Positions 9,637-60,615 of a DNA stretch of 62,402 nucleotides are shown one piece after another. Where the stretch lies: the IMG/VR virus record IMGVR_UViG_3300029219_000144. One strand, given 5' to 3'. The notes beneath the pieces are model-generated. The model ran no database searches. It was not told the DNA's origin and worked only from the letters and a program-made list of their open reading frames with translations. Source of the DNA: a virus (taxonomy: Duplodnaviria; Heunggongvirae; Uroviricota; Caudoviricetes). Made by a program: the position numbers and the translations under genes. Positions within the stretch are counted from its first letter, which is position 1; every line of letters starts with the position of its first letter.

Positions 9637-9652
9637 GTAAGTACATACTTAC
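9637..9652. promoter_or_regulatory. Palindrome GTAAGTAcaTACTTAC (TAAGTA/TACTTA family)
   Basis: Perfect inverted repeat about 45 nt upstream of the 9696 start. Confidence 0.45.
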
Positions 9653-9695
9653 GATCATAGAATATAAAAATAACCAATACACTACGGAGAGTGAA

Positions 9696-10091
9696 ATGAC
9701 CGTTAAACGCGAAAAACTGACAGTTGATGTTTACTATGCCTCTGAAACCGCCGAAGGTAAGAATGTGGCAAAAATCACCGTTGTTACGTACAACACCGAA
9801 ACTGGTGCCGAAGTCCAGGCCAGTACGATCGTGCGTAAAGGTGACGCCTCCGGCGGCGAGTACGCGACTCAATACCAGTCCATTCTCGATGCAACTGACC
9901 CGCTGCTGCTGAAAATCGAGAACTACTTCCGCCAGGTTGATGAAGAGGTGTTTGAAACCATGATGAATATGGTTAACACCGTATTCGCCTCCAGCCTGAA
10001 CACCAGCACCACCTGGATTGGCCAGTACGGTCTGCGCATTACCTCTGGCATTCCTGCCGACACCTTAATCCCTGAAAGCGTATTCGCTTAA
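9696..10091 (+). CDS. hypothetical phage protein (131 aa)
   Basis: Start MTVKREKL with GGAGAG RBS 5 nt upstream; terminator follows. Confidence 0.5.
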   Translation: MTVKREKLTVDVYYASETAEGKNVAKITVVTYNTETGAEVQASTIVRKGDASGGEYATQYQSILDATDPLLLKIENYFRQVDEEVFETMMNMVNTVFASSLNTSTTWIGQYGLRITSGIPADTLIPESVFA

Positions 10092-10102
10092 TCCTCTTTA
10101 AA

Positions 10103-10127
10103 TGGCGCGTAAACCGCGCCATTTTAT
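10103..10127 (+). terminator. Rho-independent terminator
   Basis: ATGGCGCG taaac CGCGCCAT followed by TTTT. Confidence 0.7.
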
Positions 10128-10136
10128 TATGCCCGA

Positions 10137-10151
10137 TAACAATTTGTTTTC
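10137..10151. promoter_or_regulatory. Palindrome ATAACAATTTGTTTT (operator family variant)
   Basis: Upstream of the ORF starting at 10167 or 10209. Confidence 0.45.
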
Positions 10152-10166
10152 TGCCTTATCAGATTT

Positions 10167-10583
10167 GTGAAAATGATTTCACTGAAGCAACTTAATAAGG
10201 AAACCATCATGGGACTTGATATCTATATCGAGACACAGCCTAAAAACGATCTGAATAACGAGGCATCCAGAAAGCAGGTTGCTTACTTCCGTAAGTTCAA
10301 TGCGCTCGTTGGGTGGATGGAGCGCAACGTAGGTGAAGTCGAAAATTGTGAGCTTTTAGAATTAACGATGAATGACATTTGTCTTCTGAAAGCTCATTTG
10401 ATGCACATAAACGAAAGCAATTGCGAAGAGTACTTGCCTACTCGGGAAGGTTTTTTCTTCGGCAGTCAGGAGTACGACGAAGGTTACTGGCATGACGTGG
10501 ATAAGCTGAAAAAACTTGTGGAAGACCTGATCAGGAACCACGACTTTCACAATAACAGACTGACCTTCTGCGCCTGGTGGTAA
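10167..10583 (+). CDS. hypothetical phage protein (138 aa; alternative start 10209)
   Basis: ORF; ATG at 10209 (MGLDIYIE) has AAGGA RBS and may be the real start. Confidence 0.5.
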   Translation: MKMISLKQLNKETIMGLDIYIETQPKNDLNNEASRKQVAYFRKFNALVGWMERNVGEVENCELLELTMNDICLLKAHLMHINESNCEEYLPTREGFFFGSQEYDEGYWHDVDKLKKLVEDLIRNHDFHNNRLTFCAWW

Positions 10584-10585
10584 AT

Positions 10586-57909: not shown

Positions 57910-57951
57910 AAACTGCGCTCAATAAGTAAGTACACGACTACGGTTAGAAGC

Positions 57952-58416
57952 ATGTCCACAAAAACAGATTTGTCGAAAATCCCGTCTATCTCCGGAAACA
58001 ACGGTTATTCGCTGCGCTGTCAGGAAGTGAAGATCAACGGCCATGAGGCCCATTGCAGCTATACAGTCTGCCAGCACACCATCCTCGCCTACAAAGAGAA
58101 GCGTCTCCCAGCGACATCGTTCCAGTCCTGCGCTGCGGCCATTGCTGCTGGAAAATGCCAGGCGCTGAAGATGATGGTCGAAGAGATCCGCAAAGGCGAA
58201 CAGCTCTACTTCATCGATATGGCTACGCTTATCAAAGAAGTGGAAGAGCAAAACGACCACGCCAGAACGCTTACCCGGAAGCGCAACACCATGACGATTC
58301 AACGCACGAAGAAAACAGAACCAGCCAAACCCGAAACCACGTCCACCGATTCACTGGCGCCTGTCACTGACGTGTACGCGGCACTCATTGAAGAAGCAAC
58401 CAAAGAAAACACATGA
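57952..58416 (+). CDS. hypothetical protein (154 aa)
   Basis: Start set at MSTKTDLSK because the ORF-track start 57874 lies inside the terminator. Confidence 0.45.
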   Translation: MSTKTDLSKIPSISGNNGYSLRCQEVKINGHEAHCSYTVCQHTILAYKEKRLPATSFQSCAAAIAAGKCQALKMMVEEIRKGEQLYFIDMATLIKEVEEQNDHARTLTRKRNTMTIQRTKKTEPAKPETTSTDSLAPVTDVYAALIEEATKENT

Positions 58417-58450
58417 AAACTCCCGAGCGACCGATGGAGGTTAAACACTA

Positions 58451-59773
58451 ATGGAAAAACTGATCGCCCTAAAGCACAAGCTGGATGCCATAAAAACGAT
58501 GGGAACCAACGCCAAAAAAGAGGCGCTGGCCAACCTTGATGAATTTGAGCAGAGCATGGTCTCGCTAATGCTCAACCCATTCATTCGATTCGGTGTGAAG
58601 AAGTACAAAGTGGTCGAGCCACTCGATACTTCCGTACCCATCGACCAGAAGGTAGTCGAGCTGCTGGAGAAGCTGGCGGCGCGCGAACTGACCGGGAACG
58701 CGGCCATTACTGCTGTTGAGTCTATCGTGGCGTCAATGTGCGCCGATGGGCAGGACGTGTTCCGTCGTTTCCTCTTAAAAGACCCGAAAGCAGGTGTTGG
58801 GATTAGCCTATGCAACAAGGTTTTTGAAAATCCCATTCCGAAATTCGAGGTGCAGCTGGCGTCACCGTATAAAGAAAAAGGCGACAAATACCCCTTCAAG
58901 CCAAATCCTAAAGCAAAATGGCCGATGATTGGCAGTCTTAAGCTCGATGGTTTGCGAGTAATTTGCGAGGTTATTGTTGACGAGGAAGAGGTTAACTTCC
59001 TTTCTCGTACTGGTAATCCAATCACGTCTCTCGATCACCTAAAGCCAGCAATGCTCGAATTAGGCAAACTTTCAGGCCACAAACACATCTTCTTCGATGG
59101 TGAAGGAACAGCCGGTTCATTTAACCAGTCCGTATCTGCATTGCGCAAAAAGAACGTGCAGGCAATTGGCGCTATTTATCATGTTTTCGACTTCTTCCTA
59201 CCGGAATGGCGGGCACAGGCTAAATCCAAAGAGTATGCAAAGACAGGTATGAAGCTGAAAGAGCGCCTGGCTATGCTGGTGGCGTTGTTTAAAAACGATC
59301 GCAGTGAAGGCTACGCACAAGACATTCACCTGCATCCGTTCTATATCATCCATAGCCACGAAGATTTCATCGAACGCTTCATGAAACGCCTGGACGATAA
59401 CGAAGAAGGGGAGATGGGCAAAGATCCGAACTCTGTTTACGAGTTTAAACGTACCCGCAGCTGGTGGAAGTTAAAAGACGAAGATTCAGAAGATGGTGAA
59501 ATTATCGACTTTGAGCCGGGCGACCCGGACTCTGGTTTTGCCAACACGCTTGGAAAAATTGTTATTCGCCTTGAAAACGGTGTGATTGTTCGTGCGAGCG
59601 GCATTAAGCATAAATATCTGGACGAGATCTGGAACAACAAAGAGAAGTACCGTGGTCGTATTGTCGAGGTTCATTGTCACGAGAAAACACCGGATGGCAG
59701 CTTACGCCACCCCCGACTGAAATGGCCGCGTTGCTTACGCGATACAGAAGATCGAATCGGAGATAAAGAATGA
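58451..59773 (+). CDS. ATP-dependent DNA ligase
   Basis: Adenylation motif I KLDGLR (MIGSLKLDGLRVI) and conserved downstream ligase-like blocks in a 440-aa protein. Confidence 0.75.
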   Translation: MEKLIALKHKLDAIKTMGTNAKKEALANLDEFEQSMVSLMLNPFIRFGVKKYKVVEPLDTSVPIDQKVVELLEKLAARELTGNAAITAVESIVASMCADGQDVFRRFLLKDPKAGVGISLCNKVFENPIPKFEVQLASPYKEKGDKYPFKPNPKAKWPMIGSLKLDGLRVICEVIVDEEEVNFLSRTGNPITSLDHLKPAMLELGKLSGHKHIFFDGEGTAGSFNQSVSALRKKNVQAIGAIYHVFDFFLPEWRAQAKSKEYAKTGMKLKERLAMLVALFKNDRSEGYAQDIHLHPFYIIHSHEDFIERFMKRLDDNEEGEMGKDPNSVYEFKRTRSWWKLKDEDSEDGEIIDFEPGDPDSGFANTLGKIVIRLENGVIVRASGIKHKYLDEIWNNKEKYRGRIVEVHCHEKTPDGSLRHPRLKWPRCLRDTEDRIGDKE

Positions 59774-59949
59774 TGCTCGGCTGGATGATTGCATTTTTAG
59801 CAGTTGGTTTTTTCATAGGTATTGTGGTGATGTCCAGTTGCATCAATGACTACATTAAAAGCGGTGTTATAGAAAGACGCGGTCGTATTTATCGCATTGT
59901 AGAAATAACCAACACCCTGAAGGAGATTAAGGATGATCGTATTAAGTAA
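59770..59949 (+). CDS. hypothetical small membrane protein (59 aa)
   Basis: ATG overlaps the ligase stop; hand translation MMLGWMIAFLAVGFFIGIVVMSS.. is hydrophobic. Confidence 0.3.
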   Translation: MMLGWMIAFLAVGFFIGIVVMSSCINDYIKSGVIERRGRIYRIVEITNTLKEIKDDRIK

Positions 59950-60148
59950 ACGGGAGAAGGAAACGCTTCATGAAATCAGTAAGTGGCCGGAGTTCCCTGA
60001 GTACTGGAAGCCTAAAACGCGAGCTAAGTTAGAGCGTTTAGGGTTGGTTGCAAACGTTTCTGAAACGTGGTGTTCGGCCAACTACCAGTTAACTGATAAA
60101 GGGAAAGTATTGCTACAGCAATTAGTAGAATCAGGAGTGTTAAAATGA
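59933..60148 (+). CDS. hypothetical protein (71 aa)
   Basis: ORF with AAGGAG RBS. Confidence 0.45.
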   Translation: MIVLSKREKETLHEISKWPEFPEYWKPKTRAKLERLGLVANVSETWCSANYQLTDKGKVLLQQLVESGVLK

Positions 60149-60297
60149 TTCCATACATCTCATTAGCTTTTATGGGTGGCTTCCTTATCGGCTTCGGCAT
60201 CTGTCGTGATTTAATTAAGCAGGAACTTAAAACCAAAACACTGTGCATCGGAAAGCGTGTGTATCGGGTAGTTCATGAAACAAAGGTGAAAAAATGA
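60145..60297 (+). CDS. hypothetical small membrane protein (50 aa)
   Basis: ATG overlaps the upstream stop; hydrophobic N-terminus MIPYISLAFMGGFLIGFGI. Confidence 0.3.
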   Translation: MIPYISLAFMGGFLIGFGICRDLIKQELKTKTLCIGKRVYRVVHETKVKK

Positions 60298-60584
60298 GCA
60301 ATTTAACTTCTTGGGAATGGTGGTTGGCCACCTATTTCTTAGCGGCCGGAGTCGCATTCGCCTTTTACGTAGGTCAGTTAGTCGTAAAACTGTTGCTGAT
60401 TAAATTTGCTAGTCATAAACGTATCGATGATGGTCTGTGGCGTCTTGGCACCCTGGTGGAAACTCGCTACGGGCAACTTAAGGAGAACGAAACCATTACT
60501 ATCCAAGCGAAACGATTCACTGCCACCATCACAAGAACACCTAGTCGTAGAGTGGCCTTGATCAAAAAAGTCACAACCGAATAA
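60294..60584 (+). CDS. hypothetical membrane protein (96 aa)
   Basis: Start overlaps the upstream stop; N-terminal TM WWLATYFLAAGVAFAFYVGQLVV. Confidence 0.45.
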   Translation: MSNLTSWEWWLATYFLAAGVAFAFYVGQLVVKLLLIKFASHKRIDDGLWRLGTLVETRYGQLKENETITIQAKRFTATITRTPSRRVALIKKVTTE

Positions 60585-60593
60585 AAACATATC

Positions 60594-60615
60594 GATAAGT
60601 ATTTACTTACTTATC
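60594..60615. promoter_or_regulatory. Palindrome GATAAGTAtttactTACTTATC
   Basis: Perfect 8-bp arms of the TAAGTA/TACTTA family at the start of the right-end non-coding region. Confidence 0.45.

What the first reader, a model, noticed from the sequence alone, without database searches (positions are those of the whole stretch)
9637..60615. Second intergenic motif family: TAAGTA-N-TACTTA palindromes and the half-site ATAAGTAAGTACAC between operons
Perfect palindromes occur at 9637, 28983, 42397, 57013 and 60594, an imperfect one at 16688, and the core ATAAGTAACTTAT sits inside both 57-bp palindromic elements. The half-site ATAAGTAAGTACAC is repeated exactly at 47781, 52419 and 57924, with related GTAAGTAA copies at 21986, 23584, 24490 and 35477. 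Almost all lie in short gaps before plus-strand genes (portal, scaffold, capsid, major tail, L, fibre, lysis). This looks like a phage-specific promoter, activator site or RNA-processing signal, and is distinct from the GAAAACAA palindrome family.
Basis: seen in the sequence. Interest (0 to 1): 0.58.

Follow-up and report, generated by a model that had tools for sequence, protein, structure and literature searches.

The report
Dispersed repressor operators of a phage-plasmid
The repeated TAAGTA…TACTTA palindromes are real and form one family of about a dozen 18-bp protein-binding sites placed in or next to ordinary bacterial-type promoters between the lytic genes of an SSU5-like phage-plasmid, most likely the operators through which its repressor keeps the virus silent while it lives as a plasmid.

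Summary
The window is an E. coli SSU5-like phage-plasmid (97% to phage Cyrano/pLF82). There are 10 distinct sites with at most 3 mismatches against 0.5 expected. Nine of the 10 are intergenic in 87%-coding DNA.

The two arms vary independently, the centre is a Y-R step, and several sites cannot form a hairpin. This fits a double-stranded DNA site for a symmetric dimer, not an RNA signal.

In Cyrano and SSU5, 8 of 22 and 10 of 25 sites overlap gene-oriented sigma-70-like promoters, against about 2% by chance. The motif's position in those promoters runs from about -42 to +2. That suits an operator, not an activator box or a special promoter.

Variants of the dyad sit in the same gene gaps in relatives from Klebsiella, Acinetobacter, Aeromonas and alpha- and beta-proteobacteria.

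A perfect core lies over the predicted start of the conserved promoter of the element's XRE-family repressor. That gene is outside the window, is absent from the lytic isolate SSU5, and is expressed in the LF82 lysogen while lytic genes are silent.

Best reading: dispersed repressor operators, functionally like P1 C1 operators or mycobacteriophage stoperators. The binder's identity is inferred. A ParB-like CTPase encoded in the window is the main rival.

The parts
9634..9651 (.). Weak family site ATTGTAAGTACATACTTA (4 mismatches; right half good). It follows the terminator at 9605-9631 and lies 44 nt before the hyp107-like gene (9696). It covers the -35 hexamer and spacer of TTGTAA-17-TAGAAT (9635-9663).
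   Evidence: conserved in Cyrano 96687 and SSU5 93166
16689..16706 (.). Best site in the window, TAAGTAAGTGATTACTTA (1 mismatch). It lies in the divergent gap between the UvsW-like helicase (-) and the ParB-like operon (+). A TATAAT hexamer (16684-16689) abuts it, so the motif spans about -7 to +11.
   Evidence: the same gap carries a site in Acinetobacter, Aeromonas, Oxalobacter, Ancylobacter, Faunimonas and Chelativorans
21982..21999 (.). Site TAGGTAAGTAATTATCTA (2 mismatches). It starts on the TerL stop codon and ends 11 nt before the portal ATG. There is no room for a promoter, so it is a candidate roadblock ('stoperator-like') site.
   Evidence: the TerL|portal gap site is conserved in SSU5, Klebsiella, Acinetobacter, Aeromonas, Oxalobacter, Ancylobacter and Chelativorans
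23489..23506 (.). Site TAAGTCGGTACTTACTTA (2 mismatches) inside the 3' end of the portal gene. It forms the spacer of TTGAAA-17-TATGAT (23482-23510), the best sigma-70-like match in 9-29 kb. It lies 100 nt before the scaffold-like gene (23607).
24488..24505 (.). Degenerate remnant (4 mismatches; left half only) in the scaffold|major-capsid gap. Relatives carry a good site in this gap. Membership is doubtful.
25405..25422 (.). Decayed site TAGATAGGTAGTTATCTA (4 mismatches), 9 nt after the capsid gene stop and followed by a terminator (25430-25446 plus T run). It is the orthologue of SSU5 5472 (2 mismatches) and Cyrano 5444 (3 mismatches).
28980..28997 (.). Site TCGGTAAGTATATACTTA (3 mismatches) between the tail-completion and major-tail genes. 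It overlaps the spacer and -10 hexamer of TTGAAT-18-TATACT (28966-28995).
35485..35502 (.). Site TAAGTAAGTACTAATTTA (2 mismatches) between tail genes M and L. It lies in the spacer of TAGATA-17-TATCAT (35481-35509) and is followed by a hairpin at 35513-35535.
42397..42414 (.). Site TAAGTAGGTACATACTTA (2 mismatches) between J and the tail-fibre gene. It is followed by a hairpin at 42417-42437. No sigma-70-like promoter was detected.
47781..47798 (.). Site TAAGTAAGTACACACCTA (2 mismatches; left half perfect) ahead of the lysis cassette. A conserved extended -10 element, TGaTATAAA, lies at 47817-47825. The motif centre is at about -42.5.
52420..52437 (.). Site TAAGTAAGTAACTACCTA (2 mismatches), 13 nt before the first gene of the helicase/primase module (52451).
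57014..57031 (.). Site TAAGTAGATACATACTTA (3 mismatches) in a divergent gap. A conserved TGtAAGAAT lies at 57038-57046, so the motif spans about -39 to -22.
57923..57940 (.). Half-site-only member TAAGTAAGTACACGACTA (left half 0 mismatches, right half 4). It follows the terminator at 57888-57904 and ends 5 nt before the next gene.
60596..60613 (.). Site TAAGTATTTACTTACTTA (2 mismatches). TATAAGAT at 60623-60630 follows it, then a conserved non-coding stretch leading to tRNA-Asn (61363-61437).
16725..17405 (+). ParB-like CTPase gene (GGEHRWRAA motif). This is the rival candidate binder. Its promoter carries the best-conserved site of the family.

Best explanation
The motif is an 18-bp dyad-symmetric operator, TARGTAAG-NN-CTTACYTA, with an invariant AGT-N8-ACT across the wider family. 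A dimer of a regulator encoded by the element itself recognises it as double-stranded DNA. The sites sit in the short intergenic gaps of the lytic genes. Many lie inside or against host-type (sigma-70) promoters: in the spacer, over -35, over -10, or over the start site. A bound dimer would therefore exclude RNA polymerase. Sites squeezed between a stop and a start codon, such as TerL|portal, would act as roadblocks to read-through. The most likely binder is the element's XRE-family helix-turn-helix repressor (CYRAN_45 in phage Cyrano). Its gene lies just beyond the right end of the window, and its own promoter carries a perfect operator over the predicted start site, which implies autoregulation. 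Together the sites would keep dozens of lytic transcription units silent while the element replicates as a plasmid. Shown here: the motif, its enrichment, symmetry, intergenic placement, promoter association, deep conservation, and the operator at the repressor promoter. Inferred: protein binding, the identity of the binder, repression, and roadblocking.
For: Enrichment: 10 distinct sites against 0.5 expected in the window; 23 against 0.7 in Cyrano and 26 against 0.65 in SSU5. After merging overlapping registers these are 22 and 25 distinct sites.

Placement: 9 of 10 window sites and 21 of 22 Cyrano sites are not inside a coding sequence, although 87% of the DNA is coding.

Double-stranded DNA dimer site: left and right halves are equally degenerate (54 against 68 core mismatches). 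There is no excess pairing between core arms (permutation p 0.07-1). G:T 13 against A:C 12 at the R/Y pair. The centre is a Y-R step. RNA hairpins are weak, and absent at 47781, 52420 and 57923.

Promoter link: 8 of 22 (Cyrano), 10 of 25 (SSU5) and 3 of 10 (window) sites overlap plus-strand sigma-70-like promoters, against about 2% at random. Only 2, 3 and 0 do so on the minus strand, and one of those is the repressor's own promoter. The geometry varies from -42.5 to +2.5.

Repressor promoter: TTTACA-16-TAATAT is followed by RGTAAG-NA-CTTACC 43-53 nt before the ATG in 35 distinct upstream regions (repressor 56-100% identical); the core is perfect in 33 of 35.

Repressor distribution: its homologues occur in 995 plasmids of the same genera as the portal (966 plasmids), including Acinetobacter. 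It is absent from the lytic isolate SSU5 and from the window. The recognition helix N-x-N-N-L-S-x-I-K-x-G-K is conserved.

Lysogen RNA-seq of LF82 (PMC9928086, S1 Table): repressor 96 against background 9.8. Genes just after motif-bearing promoters are at about 0-15 FPKM. ParB-like gene 4.99, the floor value.

Conservation: the same gaps carry lineage variants of the dyad in Klebsiella, Acinetobacter, Aeromonas, Photobacterium, Oxalobacter, Ancylobacter, Faunimonas, Chelativorans and Chitinibacter.
Against: No binding data exist, so the binder is inferred from context only.

The repressor gene is not in the window.

No XRE homologue was detected in the Aeromonas segment examined, and none could be looked for in the alpha/beta-proteobacterial contigs because only 20 kb was held. 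The motif persists in those lineages.

Such deep conservation of an operator core is unusual for phage immunity repressors. It is more typical of ParB-parS pairs (my own knowledge).

About half of the sites show no recognisable promoter, and roadblocking by a symmetric dimer is untested.

One motif-preceded Cyrano gene (CYRAN_34) is expressed in the lysogen at 44.

The test of expression steps across motif gaps in macrophage-grown bacteria was only weakly positive (p 0.04-0.08).
Confidence: 0.58

Rival explanations
1. The palindromes are binding or loading sites for the ParB-like CTPase encoded in the window (16725-17405). This would be a KorB/Noc-like arrangement: a ParB-family protein recognises many dispersed palindromes and regulates promoters, or organises the DNA (perhaps with the adjacent ParB-like and ABC-ATPase genes) during lytic growth or packaging.
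For: The protein has the ParB N-terminal domain with the GGEHRWRAA CTP-binding-type motif, and its closest solved relatives are Spo0J, ParB and Noc. The most positionally conserved site of the whole family lies directly upstream of this gene in every lineage examined, from E. coli to alpha-proteobacteria. The helicase|ParB-ParB-ABC-ABC-TerS module is syntenic wherever the motif occurs. Its C-terminal segment (HQxMRFKV...AGEALVWL) is highly conserved. Deep conservation of a palindrome is typical of ParB-parS (my own knowledge).
Against: No helix-turn-helix or other DNA-binding domain was recognisable. Pfam finds nothing in the C-terminal part, and the ribbon-helix-helix idea is only my reading of the pattern. 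The gene is at the floor of detection in the LF82 lysogen while motif-bearing promoters are silent, so it cannot be the lysogenic silencer. The conserved C-terminal strand is identical in Faunimonas and Chelativorans although their dyads differ. The strict intergenic, promoter-embedded placement is not needed for a parS-type site.
Confidence: 0.15
2. The dyad is the binding site of a phage-encoded transcription activator, or part of a phage-specific promoter class. Such a factor would switch on middle or late genes during lytic growth and switch off the repressor promoter, acting as a Cro-like dual regulator.
For: Sites are tied to gene-oriented promoters. Some promoters have poor -35 hexamers with the dyad at about -30 or -42 (57014, 60596, 47781), positions used by activators. 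In macrophage-grown LF82, 4 of the 12 largest upward expression steps are at motif gaps. An Acinetobacter relative carries a sigma-70-family gene.
Against: The position relative to the promoter is not fixed (-42.5 to +2.5). It includes the -10 hexamer, the start site and 17-bp spacers of near-consensus promoters, where a bound protein should block polymerase. Sites such as TerL|portal leave no room for a promoter. No sigma factor or RNA polymerase gene was found in Cyrano, and the Acinetobacter sigma gene has no Cyrano homologue. The motif is symmetric, while a promoter element should be directional.
Confidence: 0.12
3. The motif works at the RNA level, as a hairpin in polycistronic mRNA. It would serve as a processing site, stabiliser, or target of an RNA-binding translational repressor such as the FljA-family protein encoded at 13782-14384(-).
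For: Sites lie just upstream of ribosome-binding sites. Perfect copies can form 6-8 bp stems. The window encodes a full-length FljA-family protein (Pfam PF03614, E 2.5e-84). FljA is reported to act post-transcriptionally (PMC2652032).
Against: There are no compensatory changes between arms; A:C mismatches are as common as G:U. Folding energies are -0.2 to -8.2 kcal/mol, and three well-conserved sites have no hairpin. At the repressor promoter and at 16689 the transcript would begin inside the motif. FljA homologues are confined to Enterobacterales while the motif is not. There is no Rfam match.
Confidence: 0.04
4. The sites are recognised by a host protein, or serve a function other than transcription (replication, recombination, packaging, or a mobile repeat like REP elements).
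For: The core is conserved across very different hosts. From memory only, it resembles the SlmA site GTGAGTACTCAC and half of the GacA/UvrY box TGTAAG-N6-CTTACA.
Against: The dyad changes by lineage of the element (Chitinibacter TAAGTCA-N4-TGACTTA, Faunimonas AAGTCAG-NN-CTGACTT, Acinetobacter TTAGTAAG..), as expected for a co-evolving element-encoded binder. The spacing differs from the GacA box. Sites are single copies at orthologous gaps, not mobile insertions.
Confidence: 0.05

Closest known systems
Bacteriophage P1 C1 repressor and its dispersed operators
   Same: Both are E. coli phage-plasmids whose lysogeny repressor acts at many operators spread over the genome rather than at one immunity region. 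P1 has 22 such sites repressing lytic promoters (PMC8546580).
   Different: P1 operators are asymmetric 17-mers (ATTGCTCTAATAAATTT); none occurs in the window with up to 3 mismatches. C1 is not an XRE-type protein (my own knowledge). Here the site is a symmetric 18-bp dyad, and the candidate repressor is a 128-aa XRE helix-turn-helix protein.
Mycobacteriophage L5 / cluster A gp71 operators and 'stoperators'
   Same: Both have twenty to thirty-odd repressor sites. Some are in promoters and many lie in short intergenic gaps of early and late operons, where they are proposed to stop initiation and elongation (PMC9283540). A lytic relative that has lost the repressor exists in both cases: D29 there (PMC5712189) and SSU5 here.
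   Different: Stoperators are asymmetric 13-mers bound by a monomer with two DNA-binding domains, and they work only in one orientation. Here the site is symmetric with equally conserved halves. Elongation blocking is untested here.
Lambda/434/P22-type CI-Cro (XRE helix-turn-helix) repressors with palindromic operators
   Same: Both have a dyad-symmetric 14-18 bp operator overlapping -35/-10 and the start site, and an autoregulated repressor promoter with an operator over the start site plus a weaker one over -35 (family features from my own knowledge).
   Different: Classical systems use a handful of operators in one immunity region. Here there are 20-35 sites per 100-110 kb genome. The core is conserved across alpha-, beta- and gamma-proteobacterial relatives.
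RK2 KorB (ParB family) and its OB operators
   Same: Both have a dispersed palindromic operator on a plasmid, at varied positions relative to promoters, and a ParB-family CTPase encoded by the element (KorB features from my own knowledge).
   Different: The ParB-like protein here has no recognisable helix-turn-helix domain and is not expressed in the lysogen.
Intergenic repeats of coliphage T1 and Citrobacter phage Stevie
   Same: Both show 16-20 copies of an approximately 22-bp, mostly intergenic repeat in enterobacterial siphoviruses (PMC4319613).
   Different: Those repeats are asymmetric, co-oriented with transcription, occur in virulent phages and have no known function. Their sequence is unrelated.

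Membership tests
XRE/Cro-CI-type dimeric repressor with palindromic operators | Dyad-symmetric site of about 14-18 bp with both halves conserved | tested here: met
   Consensus TARGTAAG-NN-CTTACYTA; core mismatches 54 left against 68 right over 75 distinct sites
XRE/Cro-CI-type dimeric repressor with palindromic operators | Half-sites vary independently (protein reads each half; no structure-driven covariation) | tested here: met
   No excess pairing in the core (permutation p 0.07-1.0); G:T 13 against A:C 12
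XRE/Cro-CI-type dimeric repressor with palindromic operators | Operators overlap core promoter elements | tested here: met
   8 of 22, 10 of 25 and 3 of 10 sites overlap gene-oriented sigma-70-like promoters against about 2% at random. The remaining sites show no detectable promoter.
XRE/Cro-CI-type dimeric repressor with palindromic operators | Cognate helix-turn-helix repressor encoded by the element, with an operator at its own promoter | tested here: met
   Met in relatives: Cyrano, pHCM2, Klebsiella and 35 distinct IMG/VR upstream regions. The gene lies outside this window. Plasmid NZ_CP050499.1 holds 100% matches to both the window's FljA-like gene and the Cyrano repressor.
XRE/Cro-CI-type dimeric repressor with palindromic operators | Repressor physically binds the site and represses | not testable with these tools
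   Needs EMSA or footprinting, ChIP, and reporter assays
Cluster A mycobacteriophage stoperators | More than 20 repressor sites dispersed in short intergenic gaps of early and late operons | tested here: met
   22 sites in Cyrano, 25 in SSU5, 39 in the Acinetobacter plasmid; nearly all intergenic
Cluster A mycobacteriophage stoperators | Asymmetric 13-bp site whose orientation follows the direction of transcription | tested here: not met
   The site is a palindrome with symmetric conservation
Cluster A mycobacteriophage stoperators | Monomeric two-domain repressor (helix-turn-helix plus stoperator domain) | not tested
   The candidate repressor is a 128-aa XRE protein with one helix-turn-helix. 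It was not compared with gp71.
Cluster A mycobacteriophage stoperators | Bound repressor halts elongating polymerase | not testable with these tools
   Only suggested by sites with no room for a promoter, such as 21982
P1 C1 operators | Match to the 17-bp asymmetric consensus ATTGCTCTAATAAATTT | tested here: not met
   0 matches with up to 3 mismatches
ParB/KorB with parS/OB sites | ParB-family protein with a CTP-binding motif encoded by the element | tested here: met
   ParB_N domain and GGEHRWRAA; nearest solved relatives are Spo0J, ParB and Noc
ParB/KorB with parS/OB sites | Sequence-specific DNA-binding domain (helix-turn-helix) in that protein | tested here: inconclusive
   None detected by Pfam, including the C-terminal part alone. 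No structure was predicted.
ParB/KorB with parS/OB sites | Protein present when the sites are supposed to silence | tested here: not met
   CYRAN_119 is at the floor value (4.99) in LB-grown lysogen while lytic genes are silent
Promoters for a phage RNA polymerase or phage sigma factor | Phage-encoded polymerase or sigma factor present | tested here: not met
   None is annotated in Cyrano. The sigma-70-family gene of the Acinetobacter relative has no Cyrano homologue.
Promoters for a phage RNA polymerase or phage sigma factor | Directional motif at a fixed distance from the start site | tested here: not met
   The motif is symmetric, and its offset to sigma-70-like hexamers varies
RNA hairpin signals (RNase III sites, terminators, REP-like elements) | Stable hairpin maintained by compensatory changes | tested here: not met
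   Energies -0.2 to -8.2 kcal/mol, three sites without a hairpin; no covariation; no Rfam hit

The most novel reading that the evidence does not exclude
The dyads could be specific binding or loading sites for the element's ParB-like CTPase (16725-17405). That would define a KorB/Noc-like, CTP-dependent system that regulates or organises a 100-kb phage genome through about 30 dispersed sites. The system would be conserved with its sites from E. coli and Acinetobacter to alpha- and beta-proteobacterial phage-plasmids. The XRE repressor might share or compete for the same operators.
Probability: 0.13. Interest if true: 0.75.

Novelty: new member of a known kind. Interest (0 to 1): 0.5.

Why it matters
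SSU5-like phage-plasmids are very common in clinical Enterobacterales and Acinetobacter. The portal gene alone matched 966 plasmids, including Y. pestis pMT1 and S. Typhi pHCM2. I found no description of their regulatory circuit in the held literature.

The motif provides:
- a ready map of their lytic promoters and operators;
- a testable candidate for the master repressor regulon;
- a simple sequence signature (AGT-N8-ACT dyads at syntenic gaps) that tracks the family across three proteobacterial classes.

If the repressor reading is right, this is a third, independent case of whole-genome silencing through dispersed operators, after P1 C1 and mycobacteriophage gp71. Here it is built from an ordinary symmetric helix-turn-helix dimer. 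It would also explain how a lytic isolate such as SSU5 arises by losing one gene.

Tried and rejected
- T7-like promoter resemblance (ACGACTAC in 57923): dropped. No phage polymerase gene was found and the family is symmetric.
- FljA lead: the window encodes a full FljA-family protein, and FljA acts post-transcriptionally. Its homologues are confined to Enterobacterales while the motif is not, and the RNA tests failed.
- Ribbon-helix-helix idea for the ParB-like C-terminus: Pfam found nothing even at E up to 10. A database search for homologues listed only relatives 86-100% identical among those shown, so no useful alignment for structure prediction was obtained, and none was run.
- Sigma factor: it is present in the Acinetobacter relative but has no Cyrano homologue.
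- SlmA and GacA/UvrY box look-alikes: recalled from memory only. The spacing or a key base differs, and the motif co-varies with the element lineage.
- Search for repressor homologues in non-SSU5 contexts, to separate repressor from ParB: all 80 IMG/VR loci and the Serratia and Photorhabdus contigs were SSU5-like, so the test could not discriminate.
- Looking for the repressor in the alpha/beta-proteobacterial loci and the Aeromonas segment: nothing found, but only 20-41 kb was held per element.
- Single -10-hexamer offset histogram: confounded by the AT-rich palindromic flanks of the Acinetobacter sites. It was replaced by full-promoter, strand-specific counts.
- Expression steps across motif gaps in macrophage RNA-seq: only weakly enriched (7 of the 20 largest steps, p 0.04; absolute-step test p 0.08).
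- The centres of the two 57-bp palindromes (19939, 52299) and the copy at 23584 were rejected as family members (4 or more mismatches).

Full report
**What the window is.**
The window matches Escherichia phage Cyrano (pLF82) and CMS-2020a at 97% over 24 kb, and Salmonella phage SSU5 at 81%. It covers the accessory/early region, a helicase|ParB-like module, the terminase-head-tail-lysis genes, ParA, the helicase/primase/ligase module and a tRNA. Portal homologues occur in 966 PLSDB plasmids from Klebsiella, Escherichia, Acinetobacter, Enterobacter, Yersinia, Salmonella, Aeromonas and others.

**Observation check.**
The sequences are at the stated coordinates. TAAGTA-N0-10-TACTTA occurs 6 times against 0 in 100 shuffles. 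Details that do not hold:
- ATAAGTAAGTACAC is exact at only two of the three stated places.
- ATAAGTAACTTAT is in only one of the two 57-bp palindromes.
- The copies at 23584 and 24490 are not convincing.

**One family, not several.**
Aligning the copies shows that the spacer-2 palindromes, the spacer-6 palindromes and the 'half-site' are one 18-bp dyad, TARGTAAG-NN-CTTACYTA.
- With up to 3 mismatches the window has 11 matches (10 distinct sites) against 0.48 expected.
- Cyrano has 23 against 0.7, and SSU5 has 26 against 0.65. After merging overlapping registers these are 22 and 25 distinct sites.
- Nine of the 10 window sites and 21 of the 22 Cyrano sites are not inside a coding sequence, although 87% of the DNA is coding.
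- Sites usually lie 0-20 nt after a stop codon and 10-60 nt before the next plus-strand start.
- Four weaker copies (9634, 24488, 25405, 57923) are orthologous to better sites in relatives or keep one perfect half.

**DNA site or RNA hairpin.**
Over 75 distinct enterobacterial copies:
- The two halves are about equally degenerate (54 against 68 core mismatches).
- Core arm positions pair no more often than independent halves would (permutation p 0.07-1.0).
- G:T (13) is no commoner than A:C (12) at the R/Y pair.
- The central step is pyrimidine-purine.

As RNA the sites fold at only -0.2 to -8.2 kcal/mol. Three sites with a perfect left half have no hairpin. Rfam finds only the tRNA. This is the signature of a double-stranded DNA site read by a symmetric dimer.

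**Relation to promoters.**
The simple sigma-70 scan finds no excess of promoter-like sites overall (23 against 27 expected in 9-29 kb; 14 against 31 in 42-62 kb). Three of its hits in 9-29 kb nonetheless enclose motif sites:
- TTGAAA-17-TATGAT at 23482-23510, the best hit there, with the motif as its spacer.
- TTGTAA-17-TAGAAT at 9635-9663.
- TTGAAT-18-TATACT at 28966-28995.

Applying the same criteria genome-wide gives these overlaps:

| Genome | Sites overlapping a plus-strand promoter-like sequence | Same on the minus strand |
|---|---|---|
| Cyrano | 8 of 22 | 2 |
| SSU5 | 10 of 25 | 3 |
| Window | 3 of 10 | 0 |

The random expectation is about 2%. One of the two Cyrano minus-strand cases is the minus-strand repressor promoter itself.

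The commonest arrangement has the motif as the 17-bp spacer (centre -19.5 or -22.5). Other positions also occur:
- over the -10 hexamer (28980);
- from -7 to +11 (16689, abutting TATAAT);
- from -39 to -22 (57014 before TGtAAGAAT; 60596 before TATAAG);
- centred near -42.5 (47781 before a conserved TGaTATAAA).

Sites such as 21982 start on the TerL stop codon and end 11 nt before the portal ATG. They leave no room for a promoter. Variable placement within the polymerase footprint fits a repressor operator. It does not fit an activator box or a dedicated promoter.

**Conservation.**
The core AGTAAG-NN-CTTACT recurs in a diverged Klebsiella plasmid, an Acinetobacter plasmid and an Aeromonas plasmid. 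The Acinetobacter plasmid has 39 copies within 2 core mismatches, with consensus ATTATTAGTAAGYGCTTACTAATAAT. The sites occupy the same gaps:
- helicase|ParB;
- TerL|portal;
- before the capsid and major-tail genes;
- around tail genes M and L.

Loci found through the ParB-like protein in Photobacterium, Oxalobacter, Ancylobacter, Faunimonas, Chelativorans and Chitinibacter are syntenic. They carry lineage variants of the same 18-bp frame at the same gaps. Examples are TAAGTCA-N4-TGACTTA, AAGTCAG-NN-CTGACTT and TAAGTGAGCACATACTTA. Only AGT-N8-ACT is invariant. Symmetric changes by lineage point to a co-evolving binder encoded by the element rather than a host factor.

**Who binds.**
Candidates in or near the window are these:
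- a FljA-family protein (13782-14384, minus strand);
- two ParB_N proteins (16725-18073);
- two small proteins of unknown function;
- the XRE helix-turn-helix 'putative repressor' CYRAN_45 of Cyrano.

FljA homologues are confined to Enterobacterales, so that protein cannot be the family-wide binder.

Evidence for the XRE repressor:
- Its homologues are found in 995 plasmids with the same genus profile as the portal, including Acinetobacter.
- It is missing from the lytic isolate SSU5 and from the window.
- Upstream of its gene there is a conserved TTTACA-16-TAATAT promoter, followed immediately by a perfect RGTAAG-NA-CTTACC core. This holds in Cyrano, pHCM2, Klebsiella and 35 distinct IMG/VR upstream regions, and the core is perfect in 33 of the 35. 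The core lies over the predicted start site, and a weaker dyad overlaps the -35 hexamer.
- Its recognition helix is conserved.

Expression in LB-grown LF82 lysogen (PMC9928086 S1 Table):

| Gene or group | Expression value |
|---|---|
| XRE repressor (CYRAN_45) | 96 |
| Background | 9.8 |
| ParB-like gene (CYRAN_119) | 4.99 (floor) |
| Genes just after motif-bearing promoters | about 0-15 FPKM |

The same paper reports that Cyrano is induced by ciprofloxacin.

The ParB-like protein remains a serious rival:
- It has the CTP-motif GGEHRWRAA.
- The most conserved site of the family sits at its promoter in all lineages.
- Such deep conservation of a palindrome is more typical of ParB-parS (my own knowledge).

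Against it, no DNA-binding domain could be recognised in it.

**Expression steps.**
In macrophage-grown bacteria, 4 of the 12 largest upward steps between adjacent plus-strand genes are at motif gaps with good promoter-like hexamers (55|56, 59|60, 11|12, 33|34). Three of the 12 largest downward steps are also at motif gaps. Overall the enrichment is weak (p 0.04-0.08). I treat this as compatible with the model but not decisive.

**Comparison with known systems.**
The behaviour resembles three known cases:
- P1 C1, with 22 dispersed asymmetric operators (PMC8546580). That consensus is absent from the window.
- The operator/stoperator sites of mycobacteriophage L5-type repressors (PMC9283540). 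Those are asymmetric, orientation-dependent and bound by a monomer, so this is not a member of that family.
- Classical CI/Cro-type operators, which it resembles in form (a symmetric dyad in promoters with an autoregulated repressor) but exceeds in number and dispersal.

I found no description of this motif in the held literature.

**Verdict.**
The finding is real and more extensive than described. It is best explained as the dispersed operator set of the phage-plasmid's repressor. The binder and the roadblock function are still to be shown.

Noticed in passing
window 6189-10913, 20018-20055, 50382, 53203: A second palindrome family, AAACAA-N-TTGTTT: 11 sites with up to 1 mismatch against 0.47 expected. 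Sites cluster ahead of the small accessory genes and also lie upstream of TerS, ParA and the helicase. It is probably the site of a different regulator.
   Followed up: partly
window 19923-19979 and 52280-52336: Two long palindromic elements share arms GACCTGCTTC(C/T)GTATATA. One lies upstream of TerS and one upstream of the replication module. In the lysogen, expression drops from about 55 to 6 across the second one (CYRAN_30 to CYRAN_31). Possible roles are terminator, origin or packaging-related site.
   Followed up: partly
window 13782-14384 (-): A full-length homologue of FljA, the Salmonella repressor of phase-1 flagellin (Pfam PF03614, E 2.5e-84), with a weak Hfq-like hit in its C-terminal part. 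It is present in 835 enterobacterial plasmids and is lowly expressed in the LF82 lysogen (18 against background 9.8). Its target in a phage-plasmid is unknown.
   Followed up: partly
window 15083-20728; loci L101-L108: The module helicase(-)|ParB-like, ParB-like, ABC ATPase, ABC ATPase, small protein, TerS, TerL is syntenic from E. coli to Photobacterium, Oxalobacter, Chitinibacter, Ancylobacter, Faunimonas and Chelativorans, mostly on contigs of 70-114 kb. SSU5-like phage-plasmids therefore seem to extend into alpha- and beta-proteobacteria.
   Followed up: partly
SSU5 genome (L004-L006) compared with Cyrano 41090-42574: The lytic isolate SSU5 has no detectable homologue of the XRE repressor, and no integrase or regulator is annotated where Cyrano carries them. 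It keeps all the operator-like sites. This parallels mycobacteriophage D29, a repressor-deletion derivative that keeps its stoperators.
   Followed up: partly
window 42001-62000: Sigma-70-like promoter matches are depleted: 14 found against 31.4 +/- 5.7 in shuffles. This suggests selection against spurious promoters in this region.
   Followed up: no
Acinetobacter plasmid CP116441.1, record 3078-3743 (L010): A sigma-70-family sigma factor gene lies between the MoxR/CobS-like ATPase gene and the DNA polymerase III alpha gene. It has no homologue in Cyrano.
   Followed up: partly
window 60630-61363: The stretch after the 60596 site (TTTGTTTTCGTTGAGACGCGACTGTTTGAAC...) is highly conserved with SSU5 and non-coding, and it leads to tRNA-Asn. 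It may be a leader or a small RNA.
   Followed up: no
window 35525 vs 35558: The Cyrano-style start of tail gene L (35525) lies inside a hairpin and has no ribosome-binding-site spacing. The SSU5-style start (ATG at 35558, after AAGGATGA) looks more likely.
   Followed up: no
window 2386-2775; Cyrano CYRAN_98: A stand-alone S24 peptidase (UmuD/LexA C-terminal-like, with no helix-turn-helix) is among the most expressed genes in the lysogen (148) and rises further in macrophages. It may link the SOS response to induction.
   Followed up: no
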